This document shows, in pieces, positions 11,003 through 18,944 of a stretch of DNA of 64,000 nt; within the stretch, counting starts at the first letter, position 1; each line of letters begins with the position of its first letter. A program made the translations under genes and the position numbers. The notes beneath the pieces were generated by a model. The model was given only the letters and a program-made list of their open reading frames with translations, was not told the origin of the DNA and searched no databases. The stretch comes from the human T2T-CHM13v2.0 reference genome, Homo sapiens: the NCBI RefSeq assembly GCF_009914755.1, contig NC_060927.1; one strand, 5' to 3'.

Positions 11003-11628
11003 CATGTCATGCTTCTTAGGGAACTCACATACAGAACACTAATTCAGTGAAAATGCATTCCCTCCCTGCTTTTTGTTCTAAGACAGACTGAGTGAAAGAT
11101 TTCTGAAGAGTTCTACCTTAGCAGCTCTGCAATCCCCTTAGAAAGGCTGCTTGAGGAGAAGTAGGAGATGGAACAGATACTCTATACCCTGTGAGATAAG
11201 AATTGCACCAGAGGGAGAAATGCAACTCAGGGGCAAAAAATGCTTTTACATGTTACTCTGAACTAGCAATTTGGGAAACTTCATTCACTGATAAGAGGAC
11301 ACAGCCTTCTAGGCTGTCTGGCTTTTCAAGGACATGTCAAATTAGTTGAGTGATTATCGATAGAGTATGCCTCTTGTCCCTTGGTTTGCTGAGTCTGGCC
11401 TCTGCCATGTGTGCTGTGCTGCTGCCAGCAGCCAGGTGCACAAGGGCACAAGTGCTGGGCCACCTGCTGAATGCACAAGACATGCCCTGCTGCTGACAAC
11501 CTTTGGATTCTCAGGGAGGGAAGGCCTGGCCACAATGGGCCACGGGTGCCTCCTGGAACAACTGGTTGAAAGCGGAAAAAGAGAATATGAAGATGAGATT
11601 AATGAGTGAATGAGGATGAAGTTCTTAC

Positions 11629-11784
11629 CCGGTGGTGGGATGCCCGGGAGGCCAGGCACACCTGGCGGAAGATGGTGGGGTGGAGGCCCCCCAGGGTGAA
11701 GTGGCTGCATGCTGCCCATGCTAACAAGGCCATCAACTGGGCCCTGCAAAGGTGGAAGGCCTGGCGGATAGCCACCCATCATGC
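11629..11784 (-). CDS. PBRM1: PBRM1 exon E27 (156 nt, phase 1-1 cassette)
   Basis: cttcaag|GC ATG ATG..., (G)MMGGYPPGLPPLQGPVDGLVSMGSMQPLHPGGPPPHHLPPGVPGLPGIPPP; donor CGG|gtaaga; 52 codons. Confidence 0.93.
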
Positions 11785-11809
11785 CTTGAAGGACACAACA
11801 AATTTCAGA

Positions 11810-11865
11810 CATGCATCATTAACATGCAACATGAGCTAAGTAATAACAACCAACCCCCACATGCA
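11810..11865 (-). promoter_or_regulatory. Three RBFOX elements (UGCAUG) just upstream of the E27 3' splice site
   Basis: + strand catgca at 11810-11815, 11823-11828, 11860-11865. Confidence 0.75.
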
Positions 11866-14800
11866 CTACCAATGAATAAAGCACCCTTAGTACTGCATGA
11901 TATAACAGCAATTAGTGCAATTATTTTGCTGCAATAATGAACAAAATAAAAAGTTACAAATATGAGACCCAACATTTTGGGATGAATTAGTACTTAGTAC
12001 ACTATTATTTGTAGTTATTTTCCCTGGGGTAAATATGCTGCATGTTTTCAGTTAAATAATAGTAAAGAGTTCTAGTAACAGCCTTCCCAAGGAAATAATT
12101 ATTGCAAGCTGTTCAAACAGAGTGACCAGTTCTGCTGACTGCAATTCTAACTGAATAGTATAAACCCCATCATTCCACTCTGCCCACACTCATATGCCTA
12201 TCATGGGTACACATGAGGGGAAATAGGAAGGGAGGGAAATGAGCGCATAGTCCTGATCACAAAGCATGGTTCTCCAGCTTTGGGGCAGGAATTGTTCAAG
12301 ACTTCTACATCTACTCCTCCTTTCTAGCCTTACCACTGCTGGTAAGAATGGATTGTGCTTGGGCTTGAGTTGGGGAACAGCTTCTAAGAACCATCACAGT
12401 GAATGATATTTCCTTCTTTAGATCTAAAAATGTGATAAAGATAAAACCTAAACACTCCCAACCAAGCCAACCAAGTCCAGGTCACTCAGGAGCCTACACA
12501 CAGACTTTACGGAGGAATGGCTGGAGAATTGGGCTCTGCTGATATGAGAAAATGCCAAATGCCATCAGTCTCCAAGCTCAAATGTCCTCATATAAACCTT
12601 AACAGGGAGCATTTTAATTTGAGGTACACAATTTCTGTGAACAGAGGCTTTTATTCCTTTATTTTCAAAGTGTACCTACACATGACAAAATATTTTCTAC
12701 TGGCTAGAGAAGAGTTTCAGCAAACAAGTATTTTTGGCAGAAGGAATAAATGTAAGAAAAAAAATTCAAAATGTCAAGGACTCACCTATCAAAAGACCTT
12801 TAAAACCACATGGCATTTTTTTAAAACAAGAAAAACAACTTGACTTTTCTGGGATTTGTAATGATCATGATGAATAAGAACACAAAGCTCCCCCCAAAAT
12901 GCAGTCACCTTTGGTCACAGCTTCTTGCAAAGGGAGGGTTGAGGGACTGGTGCCAAACCTCATTTTTATAAAATACTCTTTGCAGAGGGACTCTGTCAAA
13001 TAGTGGAAAACTTCAGATTCTGAGAATTTTACTCTTGGACTTTCCCTGAAGATTTCAAACATATTTATTTATAAAAGTTTAGTCTTTTAAGGCTATGAAA
13101 TTACTAAAAATTCTGAGGTCGATTCACCCTGCTTCACTAGTCATACCTAAGCTGACTAACTTACAATTACATAAACCGAATGACAAAAATTTGAATAATA
13201 ATCTCTCTATACATAAGATTATGAGTTTTCATTTTTTTTTAAATGAAGAGTTCAGAAAGTAAAAACTACTTTTGAACAGACACCATCATCTTAATTAAAC
13301 ATGAAGAGATCCAATGCTACCAATCTTTTAACCACACCACCAGTTATAGCATTTAGGGTTAAGTAGGCGGGAAATTTAAGGATGTTAAGAGGCTTTGCTT
13401 TCAATTACAAAAGCCCATCTGAACGCAGCCTTCATGGGCTGTGGTTGAGGAAATTATTAAGAACTGAAAGACATGACACTTGTCTTCATTAAACTGTACT
13501 TTGGCATTTATTATCCCAGTCACATGTGTTCAAATGAGCTTCAATGCTTGTAAGCAAAGCTGGTCTCAAGACAGCAACAAGGCTAATAAGTAAGACTCAG
13601 GCCCTAAGAAACCTGTAAAACCATGAAAAATCACCCTCTTAGCTGCAGGGTTCCCCATGAGGACCAAAGAGTGGTTACTGCAGAGAATGCTTGCTTTTCA
13701 CTCCCAGGGCCCAGAAGTCTAGCCAGCACACCCTAAATAATGGAGCAGGGGCTTTCTAGAGGGACCACCTTCCTCATCCATAGAGTTCTATAATGTTCTT
13801 CCCCAACAGGGAGCTAAAATGCTGCAGCTGCTGTTTTTTTTTTTTTTTTAATTGTTTTTAGCTGTTTGTATTCATTTTGTTAATGTGCCCCTGGGTTTTG
13901 AAGTCAAGGGCACAGTGCCACAACGTCACACATCAAATAGAACAAAACACAATGTCAACGAGGGAATTCTAACTTTCAAAGTCCCCATGTTCAAGGCCTG
14001 ATTTCTAAAAACCTCTGGAACCCCATTAACCAAAATGGGCCATGGAATAGAGCAGGCGATTATGAGATTTGTTAGATCAACATCAGTTACACTGAAAGCA
14101 CTGAAAGCCATGATTCAGATGTGCTTTGGCGAGTGCAACTGCTGAGTTCAGCGACAGTGCATTTGAGAACTTGCCATCACAAAAGTTAGGAGCGACAATG
14201 GAAAAGTTATCCTATGCTACTCTTCCTTAAAAAGCAAAAACGAAACAGCAAAAACAGCATCCCAACAAGCCTGCCTTGAACAACACTATTTTGGACTCCC
14301 TGTGAAAGAGGTCAGACTGCTTGCTTAAGAAGAAACACAGGTGGCTTGTACAGACCTCACCAGGACTGGAGAGATCTCAAAGAAGGGGCCCGAGAAGTGG
14401 TCTGCAGACTTCTCATTGGAGACATGTCAGACAAAGATATTCAATTCAAGAACAGTCAAATTTGCTATGGCTACCAGAACCAGAGACAACACACACAGAC
14501 AAACCACATTCATCATTTTCTTTTTCTTTTTTTTTTTCTTAAATATGTGACTGGGATACTAACAGAAAATGCAGTTTAATGTAATTAAATAGAAAAGCAT
14601 TACAGAGTGGGCACAATGAATTGAATAAGGACTTTGTATTCTATTTAGCAGTCATGCACATTGGTGACCAAGAAAGGATTTACAATTCATTGTCAAAAAA
14701 TCCTTTTAAACGGTCAGTCTTTTAAGGATGGCTGCAGCAGAACAAGGCAAACTGAATACTGGAATGAGATGGGAAAATCAACACCACCTAAAGACTAGTT

Positions 14801-17474: not shown

Positions 17475-17555
17475 ATGCTGTATGAAAGGAGAAAAGGTTA
17501 GCACTCCCCTTGATAAGGACAGAGGAGGCCCTTGGGCCTGACAACACACATACGG
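17475..17555 (+). pseudogene. RNU6ATAC16P: U6atac snRNA retropseudogene, 3'-truncated, no poly(A)
   Basis: atgctgtatgaaaggagaaaaggttagcactccccttgataaggacagaggaggcccttgggcctgacaacacacatacgg matches the 5' ~80 nt of U6atac; flanking repeat atatgggaatatgca / atacgggaatatgca; symbol from recollection. Confidence 0.9.
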
Positions 17556-18671
17556 GAATATGCACCATAAGTTTCCAAGAGAGAGAGTTTGGAATGCTTC
17601 TCAAACTGGTTTTGCCACAAAATGTTTTTTGGCTAAACATCTTGCAGGATTAGGATTCTTTGCAGAAGATCCTTGGGGAAGCCTGTCAGATAATTTCATA
17701 GTAATCAAATAATTATAATAAATGACCTTTTTTTTTTTAAAGAAGTTTCTTTGGAGACTTCAAAAATTTTAATAAAAGGGGCAGCCTAAATAATTAATGT
17801 TTGCCAGAAAATAATAGAACTGTACCCACCTAAGAAGAGTAGTGGTTGACCATTGTAGAGAGGAGCTCTAAACTGGCAAAATGAACCAATATATAAAATT
17901 CCAGATGGAAAAAATATAGCTCAAAGGGCAACAGTACTGCCTAATCTAATGCTTACTACTAATTTCTTTACTAAGTCCATGTCTGATATTTAAAAAAAAC
18001 CCACAAAAACAAAAACCCAACAACAAAAAACAAAAAATCTCAAGTATTTGTCTCTAAATGGCTAAGAACCACCAAATTCTTGAATGACAGCTCACTGCCC
18101 AAAGTGATTTAATTAGAATAAAAGGAAAATAAAGGCAGTTGAGCTTTATAAAAAAGACCCAAATACCTTAGAAGTAGCTATGAATACAGACACAGTATAG
18201 GCCAGGACTGACCTAGGAAACCAAGCACTTTAGCAAAGACTCAGCCTGAAGTTTAAATATATGGCTTACCAAGAGCTGTAACACAAGATCACTGATTTTA
18301 AGAGGCCCTTTTCAGACGAATTTTAATTAAAATTATATTTAACATCATTGTACAATAATTCCCTAGCTCAACATGTGTGCTTACAGGGCTCAATGAAAGA
18401 AAAAAATCATGCAATTTTTAGTAGCAAAATATTTTGGAGAAATTTGCAGGGGAAAATACAACACCAGGATCAGAGGCCAAGTCAGGGGCAGTGCTCTGCT
18501 CAGTCAGGACAAGGCTAGCATCTAAAATACTGGTTGGGTGCCATTTGGAACAGTCCCCAAAATAAAAGTTCATGTGCAAGTGGTAAGAACAAGAGTAAAA
18601 CCTGTCTGTGCGCGTGCATTCCTGAAACACCCCCTTGCTTCGAAAGACAGTTGTGCCTAGGCTCTATTTAC

Positions 18672-18873
18672 CTTCATATTCTGCTTTCTTGGCTGTCTCA
18701 AGATTTCTCCATTCTGTCCCCACCAGGCGGCTGAGCTCCCCGAAAGAGTAGTCTGGGTGTTGGGCCTTAATCACAGCCCTCATCTCACTGCTGAACAGGA
18801 TGTAGCCACTCATGTTGATTTTCCGTTTGGAGCCTTCCTTCTTTGCACTGCCTTTGGCAGACTTTGGGGTAGA
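18672..18873 (-). CDS. PBRM1: PBRM1 exon E25 (202 nt): HMG box
   Basis: cttacag|TCT ACC..., STPKSAKGSAKKEGSKRKINMSGYILFSSEMRAVIKAQHPDYSFGELSRLVGTEWRNLETAKKAEYE; donor AAG|gtaaat. Confidence 0.97.
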
Positions 18874-18944
18874 CTGTAAGACAGAAAGGTCTTATGGTGC
18901 ATCAAAACATTACATTTGGTTAACTGCTCAAAATTTCAGAAGCC

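What the first reader, a model, noticed from the sequence alone, without database searches (positions are those of the whole stretch)
11003..18944. Alu-free 8-kb island holding an array of phase-1 cassette modules between the HMG exon and the C-terminal tail
Seen: I find no Alu in ~7.9 kb, although most other introns carry roughly one per kb. All introns between E25 and E28 are phase 1. In transcript order the island contains candidate units of 6 nt, 120 nt (E26 shadow), E26 (165), 110 nt, 12 nt, 90 nt and E27 (156), most of them multiples of 3. Established: TE depletion is typical of conserved regulated splicing regions. Inference: a combinatorial, partly unannotated splicing cassette that edits or switches off (via NMD) the post-HMG low-complexity tail of BAF180. 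Caveat: a few strong donor-like motifs are expected by chance in 8-11 kb.
Basis: partly seen in the sequence, partly recalled or inferred. Interest (0 to 1): 0.75.

Follow-up and report, generated by a model that had tools for sequence, protein, structure and literature searches.

The report
Known transposon-free block around PBRM1 cassette exons
The repeat-free 8 kb stretch is real but already catalogued, it surrounds two already known optional exons of the PBRM1 gene, and the extra mini-exons proposed inside it look like ordinary chance look-alikes.

Summary
The Alu-free gap is real: window 11000-18945, 7,946 nt, next largest gap 3,701 nt, broken-stick P about 0.001. It also lacks other interspersed repeats. 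A search of the window's own genome found only U6atac-like copies, while an equal-sized control stretch gave 85,349 candidates. The island is already listed as human transposon-free region hs3.144 by Simons et al. 2007.

The three introns between E25 and E28 are all phase 1. E26 (165 nt) and E27 (156 nt) are published cassette exons, and RBFOX2 regulates E27.

The five extra units can be located by size. Such acceptor-donor pairs are no more frequent than chance: 30 observed against 35 +/- 11 in shuffles. Two have poor acceptors and two carry in-frame stops. None appears in 230 mammalian PBRM1 proteins. No database protein matched the 90-nt unit's peptide.

The tail is shortened by two annotated intronic polyadenylation sites, not by demonstrated NMD exons.

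Two leads remain. The "E26 shadow" may be a decayed partial duplicate of E26. Stop-bearing alternative acceptors modelled in beaver and Kogia are conserved in human intron 25.

Verdict: observation sound, interpretation partly supported, mostly already known.

The parts
11000..18945 (.). Alu-free and transposon-free island (7,946 nt by my Alu boundaries). It equals hs3.144, hg18 chr3:52563154-52571095, in the human TFR list.
18672..18873 (-). E25, the HMG-box exon (202 nt). Upstream intron is phase 0, downstream intron is phase 1.
   Evidence: Pfam PF00505 on all hits
18296..18671 (-). Annotated extension of E25 to an alternative 3' end. ATTAAA lies 31 nt upstream of the end. Read-through adds 2 residues and then a stop.
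   Evidence: hub gene table
15154..15318 (-). E26, a 165-nt cassette exon, phase 1-1. Its peptide is 100% identical in the 120 best mammalian hits.
   Evidence: PMC11574163
14557..15153 (-). Annotated extension of E26 to an alternative 3' end. ATTAAA lies 23 nt upstream of the end. It gives a 5-residue tail and stop (human isoform 24, P0125). A genomic A-rich run lies just 3' of the end.
   Evidence: hub gene table
11629..11784 (-). E27, a 156-nt cassette exon, phase 1-1.
   Evidence: PMC11574163
11810..11865 (-). Cluster of three sense-strand TGCATG (starting at 11865, 11828, 11815), 31-81 nt upstream of E27. These are the RBFOX2 silencer elements of Cho et al. 2024.
   Evidence: PMC11574163 passages
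17475..17612 (+). U6atac retro-pseudogene (RNU6ATAC16P), antisense to PBRM1. It is the only repeated sequence found in the island.
   Evidence: 78 bits, model 1-126 of 126; 30 similar copies, 78-91% identity
17098..17217 (-). 'E26 shadow'. A 24/25 core match to E26, 18 shared 9-mers, and 8/8 residues identical in the same frame. The acceptor is very poor and there is an in-frame TGA. It partly overlaps a (TGC)7 microsatellite at 17175-17195.
18270..18275 (-). No support.
14361..14470 (-). It shifts the frame and has an in-frame stop. No support in annotation.
12786..12797 (-). No support.
12334..12423 (-). It is open in phase 1. No protein in the database carries it.
15752..15845 (-). Possible 94-nt stop-bearing exon. 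The acceptor at 15845 scores 9.1 and matches the 7-residue tail of beaver P0044 exactly. The nearest donor-like site, with first intron base 15751, scores 6.1. The exon end is inferred.
15491..15528 (-). Alternative acceptor at 15528 (score 5.8) followed by a stop. It matches the 12-residue tail of Kogia P0072 exactly.

Best explanation
The island is the block formed by introns 25 and 26 and the start of intron 27 of human PBRM1 (BAF180). It surrounds two known cassette exons, E26 and E27, which are skipped independently and preserve the reading frame. It is an already catalogued transposon-free region (hs3.144).

Shown: the region has no Alu and no other detectable transposon. Its only inserted element is a U6atac pseudogene. 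E26 and E27 are symmetric phase 1-1 exons used in all four combinations. Three UGCAUG elements lie just upstream of E27. Two annotated alternative 3' ends with ATTAAA signals lie after E25 and after E26.

Inferred: insertions have been kept out because these two 3.3-kb introns are packed with signals for the cassette choice and for the two intronic polyadenylation sites. Alus placed there would disturb both.

The five extra 'units' are ordinary pseudoexons of the kind every intron holds. The 120-nt shadow is at most a dead remnant of a partial E26 duplication.
For: Transposon-free state: and control 37. Listing as hs3.144 is in Additional file 2 of PMC2241635. I checked the assembly mapping with the neighbouring TFR hs3.143: its predicted upper end falls 4 nt from an Alu start in the window's own genome.

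Cassette pair: (phases). In one search, 120 E25-containing proteins split as 101 skipping both exons, 4 with E26 spliced straight to E28 (no E27), 3 with E26 followed by the short 5-residue tail, 1 with E27 only, 4 with both, and 7 with other tails. In one search, 121 E26-containing proteins continue with E27 in 71, E28 in 32, a 5-residue tail and stop in 17, and another tail in 1.

Published regulation: RBFOX2 binds three UGCAUG elements upstream of E27, which the authors call conserved across vertebrates, and drives skipping (PMC11574163, passages). Four RT-PCR variants were found in 10 cell lines (PMC13096959, passages). A zebrafish pbrm1l cassette removes about 55 residues (bioRxiv 10.1101/2024.11.01.621494, passages).

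Signal density: 5 of the window's 12 sense-strand TGCATG lie in the island, which is 12% of the window (P = 0.011). ATTAAA lies at -31 and -23 of the two annotated alternative ends.

Intron conservation, indirect: the 5-residue read-through tail after E26 is the same in 17 proteins, human isoform 24 and proteins of other mammals. Intron-encoded tails modelled in beaver (7 of 7 residues) and Kogia (12 of 12) are exact in human. By my own hand reading of the sequence, not a tool call, the elephant-seal tail matches at 10 of 11 residues.

Pseudoexons at chance level.
Against: No cross-species DNA alignment could be made here, so selection on the intronic sequence is inferred, not shown.

The cross-species tails cover only about 90 nt of 6.7 kb of intron. 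They come from automatic gene models.

The U6atac pseudogene shows that the island has tolerated at least one insertion.

The TFR authors report that most TFR bases are not alignable between fish and mammals, and they link TFRs to transcriptional regulators in general, not to splicing.

The annotated end at 14557 is followed by a genomic A-rich run, so internal priming could have contributed to that annotation.

Only the best 120 of 2,765 and the best 120 of 679 database hits were listed. Rare isoforms that carry an extra unit could have been missed.
Confidence: 0.62

Rival explanations
1. One reading: the island holds further functional modules (microexons of 6 and 12 nt, a 90-nt coding cassette, and 110- and 120-nt poison exons). 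These would be combined with E26 and E27 to edit the tail or to send the mRNA to NMD.
For: All five sizes can be found at donor-like sites. Three of them keep the phase-1 frame open. The 110-nt and 90-nt units have splice scores within the range of the real exons. Other mammals' gene models do use stop-bearing alternative acceptors in intron 25, and these are exactly conserved in human, so the intron is not silent.
Against: Pair counts equal chance: 30 against 35 +/- 11, with 67 of 100 shuffles at or above the observed number. The 120-nt unit has an acceptor score of -9.7 and the 12-nt unit 1.3. None of 120 E25-to-E26 junctions and none of 121 contexts downstream of E26 shows an insertion. None of the 120 E25-containing proteins carries one. 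No protein carries the 90-nt peptide. The hub's table of RefSeq exons (171 transcripts) lists no such exon. Four products only were reported for E25-E28 RT-PCR, although a 1.5% agarose gel would not resolve 6 or 12 nt. An open run of 30 codons has a chance probability of 0.24.
Confidence: 0.1
2. The transposon-free state reflects a constraint unrelated to splicing. Examples are an intronic enhancer or chromatin element, or selection against transcriptional interference by retroelements, as proposed for transposon-free regions in regulatory genes in general.
For: Human TFRs of 5 kb or more number 9,203. They are enriched at genes for regulation of transcription, and PBRM1 is a chromatin regulator (PMC2241635, passages). 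A paper on retroelement-free regions and transcriptional interference exists (PMC2582637; search listing only).
Against: The hub table lists no RefSeq functional element inside the island; its only one in the window is a silencer at 29204-29404. The island's limits enclose exactly the two regulated exons with their introns, and hs3.144 is the only TFR of 5 kb or more within the gene span. Known splicing and polyadenylation signals do lie inside it.
Confidence: 0.18
3. Chance: the gap is the tail of a random insertion process and has no meaning.
For: With thousands of genes scanned, some gaps of 8 kb will arise. For zebrafish, the TFR authors' own random model predicts more than half of the TFRs of 5 kb or more (2,778 expected of 4,891).
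Against: Within this window the gap has P about 0.001, at a local density near 1 Alu per kb. The absence extends to L1 and other repeats, which the same search detects in the control stretch.
Confidence: 0.08

Closest known systems
Transposon-free regions (TFRs) of vertebrate genomes, Simons et al. 2007 (PMC2241635); entry hs3.144
   Same: This is the same object. It is defined as lacking any RepeatMasker DNA, LINE, SINE or LTR annotation. The mapping was verified through the neighbouring entry hs3.143.
   Different: The catalogue gives coordinates only. It says nothing about PBRM1, its cassette exons or splicing (0 occurrences of PBRM1 and of 'alternative splic' in the main text).
PBRM1 E26/E27 cassette exons with RBFOX2-dependent skipping of E27 (Cho et al., EMBO J 2024, PMC11574163; MASQ, PMC13096959)
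   Same: Same exons, same numbering, same sizes (165 and 156 nt). Three UGCAUG elements lie upstream of E27, and four splice variants occur between E25 and E28.
   Different: In the passages I read, these papers do not discuss the absence of repeats, the two intronic poly(A) sites or any further exon.
Composite terminal exons / intronic polyadenylation isoforms
   Same: The exon extensions 18296-18873 and 14557-15318 are annotated. ATTAAA lies 31 and 23 nt upstream of their ends. Truncated proteins result, including human isoform 24 and 16 other mammalian proteins with the same 5-residue tail.
   Different: Use of the sites was not measured here. The end at 14557 abuts a genomic A-rich run.
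Intronic pseudoexons (recalled: Sun and Chasin 2000, pseudoexons outnumber real exons)
   Same: Acceptor-donor pairs of exon-like spacing occur at the frequency that composition predicts.
   Different: The paper is recalled, not read here.
Tandem exon duplication leaving unannotated exon copies in the neighbouring intron (recalled: Letunic, Copley and Bork 2002)
   Same: The shadow lies in the adjacent upstream intron, on the same strand and in the same frame. It shows the strongest exon-to-intron similarity among the 13 exons tested.
   Different: Only about 54 nt align, at 78%. The core overlaps a CAG-type microsatellite. The matching pieces are not all in the same order as in E26. No usable acceptor was found and there is an in-frame stop.

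Membership tests
Transposon-free region (TFR, Simons et al.) | At least 5 kb without any RepeatMasker annotation of class DNA, LINE, SINE or LTR | tested here: met
   Listed as hs3.144; definition read. My own checks: no Alu, and no repeated sequence other than U6atac in an own-genome search, against 85,349 candidates for the control.
Transposon-free region (TFR, Simons et al.) | Orthologous region also transposon-free in other vertebrates (the 'maintained' subclass) | tested here: inconclusive
   The mouse list (Additional file 3) shows clusters of TFRs on chr14 near 28.9 and 30.1 Mb. I do not have the mm8 coordinates of Pbrm1, so none could be assigned.
Frame-preserving regulated cassette exons | Length a multiple of 3 with flanking introns of the same phase | tested here: met
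   E26 is 165 nt and E27 is 156 nt; all three introns are phase 1.
Frame-preserving regulated cassette exons | Both inclusion and skipping observed, independently for each exon | tested here: met
   All four combinations occur among annotated mammalian proteins and in published RT-PCR.
RBFOX-regulated exon | UGCAUG elements in the flanking intron close to the exon | tested here: met
   Three TGCATG lie 31-81 nt upstream of E27. Binding and mutagenesis are published. Conservation is as stated by those authors and was not tested here.
   The 110-nt unit scores 6.7 / 10.2, within the real range. The 120-nt unit has an acceptor score of -9.7, far below the weakest real acceptor at 3.5. The matrix was recalled from memory, not MaxEnt.
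   Both carry in-frame stops in the phase-1 reading, and several junctions lie downstream.
   No RNA-seq and no vertebrate genome alignments were available. No tail of the 110-nt unit appears among 121 E26-containing proteins.
   The lengths are multiples of 3, but 0 of 120 E25-to-E26 junctions and 0 of 121 contexts downstream of E26 show an insertion. The acceptor scores are 4.0 and 1.3.
Tandem exon duplicate: 'E26 shadow' | Sequence similarity to the neighbouring exon beyond chance, on the same strand and in the same frame | tested here: inconclusive
   24/25 core (E = 3.6e-6 in-window) and 42/54 extended. Loose local score is 26 against a next best of 17 for E26, but other exons reach 18-25. 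It shares 18 9-mers against 3-13 for the other 12 exons. 8/8 residues match, pairwise E = 0.001. The core overlaps (TGC)7.
Intronic polyadenylation / composite terminal exon | Poly(A) signal hexamer 10-35 nt upstream of an annotated transcript end within an intron | tested here: met
   ATTAAA lies at -31 (end 18296) and -23 (end 14557). The ends are taken from the hub's RefSeq table.

The most novel reading that the evidence does not exclude
Besides the two cassettes and the two intronic poly(A) sites, intron 25 may hold a conserved stop-introducing splice unit used across placental mammals. Candidates are the human acceptor at 15845 (score 9.1), perhaps forming a 94-nt exon ending at the donor-like site at 15751, and/or the alternative acceptor at 15528. 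The CAG-rich shadow at 17098-17217 would be the relic of a tandem copy of E26. The BAF180 tail would then be controlled at three levels (cassette choice, early polyadenylation, NMD), and this density of signals would be what keeps transposons out.
Probability: 0.15. Interest if true: 0.45.

Novelty: already known. Interest (0 to 1): 0.18.

Why it matters
PBRM1 is a major tumour suppressor in kidney cancer. The choice of E27 has been linked to PD-L1 expression and to the response to PD-1 blockade (PMC11574163).

This report links three things for the first time, as far as my searches show. The two cassette exons and their two early poly(A) sites sit inside one catalogued transposon-free region, the only one of 5 kb or more in the gene. 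That gives a concrete candidate reason for one such region. It also marks these two introns as the place to look for regulatory variants.

The link itself is modest.

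Tried and rejected
1. Earlier findings of this scan were not open to the session.

2. Rfam at E <= 1 over the island found only the U6atac pseudogene and Alu/SRP edges. There is no other structured RNA family.

3. BLAST of the island against the rest of the window found no shared repeats. The island against itself gave one 39-nt, 82% pair.

4. Inverted repeats over 7700-18944 gave 49 pairs, mostly poly(A)/poly(T). 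Two non-trivial ones are listed under Noticed in passing. I did not treat them as evidence of looping (one search failed on a strand argument and was corrected).

5. A literature search for PBRM1 together with poison exon, cryptic exon, microexon, intronic polyadenylation or pseudoexon returned 477 papers holding at least 2 of the 6 terms, of which 25 were listed. The two PBRM1-bearing papers I opened do not describe an extra exon here. A search for polybromo / Horikawa / splice variants / BAF180 gave nothing on the point. Horikawa and Barrett 2002 is known to me only as cited in the zebrafish preprint.

6. The 90-nt unit's 29-residue peptide was too short for the protein search. I extended the reference upstream into the open genomic frame, giving 43 residues. 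The search then found nothing among 3 candidates.

7. I could not assign a mouse orthologue of hs3.144 from the mouse TFR list, because I lack reliable mm8 coordinates.

8. The 4-residue tail of ground-squirrel protein P0041 has no counterpart in the human introns (3-residue match only, outside the island).

9. 'Proteins' P0001 and P0002 (131 and 134 residues, unnamed source) look like open frames called on genomic contigs across E25. I did not count them as evidence for the poly(A) site after E25.

Full report
What the window is. By the hub's table the window is T2T-CHM13 chr3:52,576,001-52,640,000 and holds the 3' part of PBRM1 on the minus strand. I read the island on that strand.

The Alu-free gap. 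The stored window carries no soft-masking, so I found Alus by similarity. I used the Alu pair at 10385-10999 as query against the window. This gave 211 HSPs in 57 merged intervals, 18,540 nt or 29% of the window, about 62 Alu equivalents.
- The largest gap is 11000-18945 (7,946 nt). The next are 3,701 nt (mostly the 3' UTR exon) and 3,482 nt.
- Placing the same blocks at random gave a largest gap of 7,946 nt or more in 0.1% of 200,000 trials with 57 blocks, and in 0.04% with 62 elements. The 99th percentile of the largest gap was 6,378 nt.
- Introns 25 and 26 carry no Alu base. The other introns above 1 kb carry 13-60%.
- GC content inside the island (0.38-0.47) does not differ from the rest of the window.

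More than Alu-free. The window's own genome can be searched.
- The whole island found only itself plus 30 copies similar to 17476-17555, the U6atac pseudogene. Rfam gives 78 bits over the full model at 17475-17612 on the plus strand.
- An equal-sized control stretch of the same window (46168-54109) produced 85,349 first-look candidates. Its long matches at 71-87% identity are typical of L1 and Alu. The method therefore does see old repeats.
- The tool warns that very common words are skipped, which is why I ran the control.

Already catalogued. Simons et al. 2007 (PMC2241635) list all human regions of 5 kb or more without RepeatMasker DNA, LINE, SINE or LTR annotation in hg18. There are 9,203 such regions, and 856 of them are 10 kb or longer (passages).
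- Their Additional file 2 has the row chr3 52563154-52571095, hs3.144, which is 7,941 nt.
- To check the mapping without relying on remembered coordinates, I used the neighbouring row hs3.143 (52527510-52535720). With the offset implied by hs3.144, its upper end should fall at T2T 52,559,568. In the fetched sequence an Alu starts at 52,559,565.
- The island is therefore hs3.144. No other entry lies between 52.536 and 52.842 Mb, so it is the only TFR of 5 kb or more within the gene.
- The paper's main text mentions neither PBRM1 nor alternative splicing.

Phases and the known cassette pair. Counting back from the stop codon, the introns E25>E26, E26>E27 and E27>E28 are all phase 1. E26 (15154-15318, 165 nt) and E27 (11629-11784, 156 nt) are symmetric. 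This is the arithmetic that lets either exon be skipped without a frameshift.

The skipping is published.
- TCGA analysis treats E26 and E27 as cassette exons.
- RBFOX2 binds three UGCAUG elements upstream of E27. The authors report them as conserved across vertebrates by PhyloP, and mutating any one reduces skipping.
- RT-PCR from E25 to E28 in 10 cell lines gives exactly four variants (PMC13096959, passages).
- A zebrafish preprint describes a cassette in pbrm1l that removes about 55 residues, and cites Horikawa 2002 for the conserved deletion.

I find the three TGCATG at 11865, 11828 and 11815. Two more lie at 18413 and 14658, inside the two annotated exon extensions. In all, 5 of the window's 12 sense-strand copies are in the island (P = 0.011).

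Cross-species annotation. The protein database holds eukaryotic models.
- With the E25 peptide as query, 2,765 proteins passed and the best 120 were listed, all mammalian polybromo-1 models or fragments. E25 is followed directly by E28 in 101. E26 is present in 11: with E27 in 4, spliced straight to E28 in 4, and with a short tail in 3. E27 occurs without E26 in 1. Other tails occur in 7.
- With the E26 peptide as query, 679 passed and 120 were listed. Over both searches, 121 proteins contain E26.
- In all 120 of those that also contain the end of E25, the two exons abut with only the split codon between them.
- After E26 comes E27 in 71, E28 in 32, a 5-residue tail and stop in 17, and an 11-residue tail in 1.
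After E27, 57 of 64 proteins continue exactly with E28. Another 6 lack the exact E28 landmark but have the same tail length as the variant-E28 proteins (which in other proteins reflected one substituted residue), so most likely they continue with E28 too. One protein (P0123) has a different, 78-residue tail. None has the annotated 132-nt exon at 9115-9246.
- Only the top-ranked hits were seen, so rare models may be missing.

How the tail is really cut short. The hub table lists two extended exons, 18296-18873 and 14557-15318.
- Both ends have ATTAAA upstream, at -31 and -23.
- Reading through the E25 donor gives 2 residues and a stop.
- Reading through the E26 donor gives the 5-residue tail seen in 17 proteins, including human isoform 24 (P0125, 1,457 residues). 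The others come from alpaca, warthog, voles, cats, deer, buffalo, kangaroo rat, zebra, bat, pig and bear.
- The tail after the HMG box is therefore edited by the cassettes and removed by early polyadenylation.
- Caveat: a genomic A-rich run follows 14557 directly, so internal priming may have helped create that end.

The five proposed units. I scored splice sites with a weight matrix built from recalled consensus frequencies. On this scale the 13 real exons have acceptors from 3.5 to 13.2 and donors from 4.7 to 12.8.

| Unit | Window coordinates | Acceptor | Donor | Phase-1 reading |
|---|---|---|---|---|
| 6 nt | 18270-18275 | 4.0 | 7.5 | open |
| 120 nt (shadow) | 17098-17217 | -9.7 | 6.4 | stop |
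| 110 nt | 14361-14470 | 6.7 | 10.2 | frameshift and stop |
| 12 nt | 12786-12797 | 1.3 | 10.7 | open |
| 90 nt | 12334-12423 | 5.9 | 8.8 | open |

- With acceptors of 3.5 or more, donors of 6.4 or more and lengths of 3-250 nt, the two introns hold 30 pairs. In 100 dinucleotide shuffles the mean is 35.1 +/- 11.0, and 67 shuffles reach 30.
- The antisense strand gives 3.3 pairs per kb, and so do 24.7 kb of other non-Alu intron. The island's sense strand gives 4.5 per kb. Two other threshold pairs gave the same picture.
- Multiples of 3 are not enriched (14 of 30, P = 0.09). An open run of 30 codons has a chance probability of 0.24.
- The peptide of the 90-nt unit, lengthened to 43 residues along the genomic frame, matched nothing.

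I conclude that these are ordinary pseudoexons.

The E26 shadow. This is the one unit with something behind it.
- E26 matches 17200-17176 at 24 of 25 bases (E = 3.6e-6 within the window), or 42 of 54 when extended. The donor region matches 17109-17089 at 20 of 23.
- The 140-nt tile 17081-17220 shares 18 9-mers with E26. The best tile for each of the other 12 exons shares 3-13.
- In the phase-1 frame the two encode the same 8 residues (pairwise E = 0.001). The segment is single-copy in the genome.
- Against this: the core overlaps a (TGC)7 microsatellite. With a loose local score, other exons reach 18-25 against 26 here. The matching pieces are not all in the same order as in E26. There is no usable acceptor.
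- My reading: a decayed partial duplicate of E26 is about as likely as a CAG-repeat coincidence. In neither case is it a working exon in human.

Other mammals' odd tails. Three gene models end in intron-encoded tails.
- Beaver P0044 has 7 residues and Kogia P0072 has 12. Both are found exactly in human intron 25, behind acceptors at 15845 (score 9.1) and 15528 (score 5.8).
- The 11-residue tail of elephant seal P0122 corresponds to the human acceptor at 14973 (score 11.6) in intron 26. It matches at 10 of 11 residues by my own reading of the sequence, not by a tool call.
- The models were chosen by other pipelines without regard to human. Their exact survival in human therefore hints at above-neutral conservation at these spots. 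That step is inference.
- A donor-like site at 15751 (score 6.1) would make a 94-nt exon with the 15845 acceptor. This exon end is my guess.

Why the region is transposon-free. Shown: the region is free of transposons, it encloses exactly the regulated exons, and it contains published and annotated RNA-processing signals. Not shown: that insertions are selected against for that reason.

I put about 0.6 on the reading that combines signal density with pseudoexons. I put 0.18 on a constraint unrelated to splicing, of the kind the TFR authors discuss. The U6atac pseudogene, whose copies elsewhere are 78-91% identical, shows that insertion is not absolutely excluded.

Verdict. The region is TFR hs3.144, and E26/E27 are characterised cassette exons with a known regulator. 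The new claim, an array of further modules, is not supported. Novelty: already known. Interest is low, with a small residue for a possible conserved stop-introducing unit upstream of E26 and for the exon-duplicate relic.

Noticed in passing
window 15845 and 15528 (minus strand): Alternative acceptors in intron 25. Their downstream reading frames reproduce exactly the stop-terminated tails of a beaver (P0044, 7 residues) and a Kogia (P0072, 12 residues) polybromo-1 model. The 15845 acceptor scores 9.1.
   Followed up: partly
window 14973 (minus strand): The strongest acceptor-like site of intron 26 (score 11.6). It corresponds to the 11-residue tail of an elephant-seal model (P0122), matching at 10 of 11 residues by my own reading of the sequence. 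A donor-like site 24 nt downstream (14949) scores 6.3.
   Followed up: partly
window 17829 (minus strand): An AG directly followed by GT, with acceptor score 6.4 and donor score 8.6 at the same position. This is the layout of a recursive splice site or zero-length exon. It may well be chance in a 3.3-kb intron.
   Followed up: no
window 14023-14048 and 15710-15735: A 26-nt inverted repeat, 81% complementary, with its arms in introns 26 and 25. Pairing would loop out E26. It is one of 49 pairs found, so it may be chance.
   Followed up: no
window 13508-13525 and 14545-14562: An 18-nt inverted repeat, 94% complementary, within intron 26. One arm covers the annotated alternative 3' end at 14557.
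   Followed up: no
window 14516-14540: A genomic A-rich run (on the sense strand) directly 3' of the annotated transcript end at 14557. Internal oligo-dT priming could mimic a poly(A) site here, although ATTAAA lies 23 nt upstream of the end.
   Followed up: partly
window about 47,550-52,000: Long matches to many genomic loci at 71-84% identity, with strong AT skew in the composition profile. This is an old L1-type element in the intron between the exons at 45982-46167 and 60433-60644, interrupted by Alus.
   Followed up: partly
window 9115-9246 (minus strand): An annotated alternative 132-nt exon in intron 27, outside the island and 121 nt from an Alu fragment. It is also a multiple of 3 between phase-1 introns. 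It is absent from all 64 E27-containing proteins examined.
   Followed up: partly
G000:C3:52,551,3xx-52,559,564 (window about -24,640 to -16,436): A second catalogued transposon-free region, hs3.143 (8.2 kb), lies 27 kb away at the STAB1/NT5DC2 3' ends. Its upper boundary coincides with an Alu start in T2T to within 4 nt.
   Followed up: partly
proteins P0051, P0052 (pig): Models in which E25 is joined directly to the last coding exon, skipping E26 to E29. The phase-1 frame is kept.
   Followed up: no
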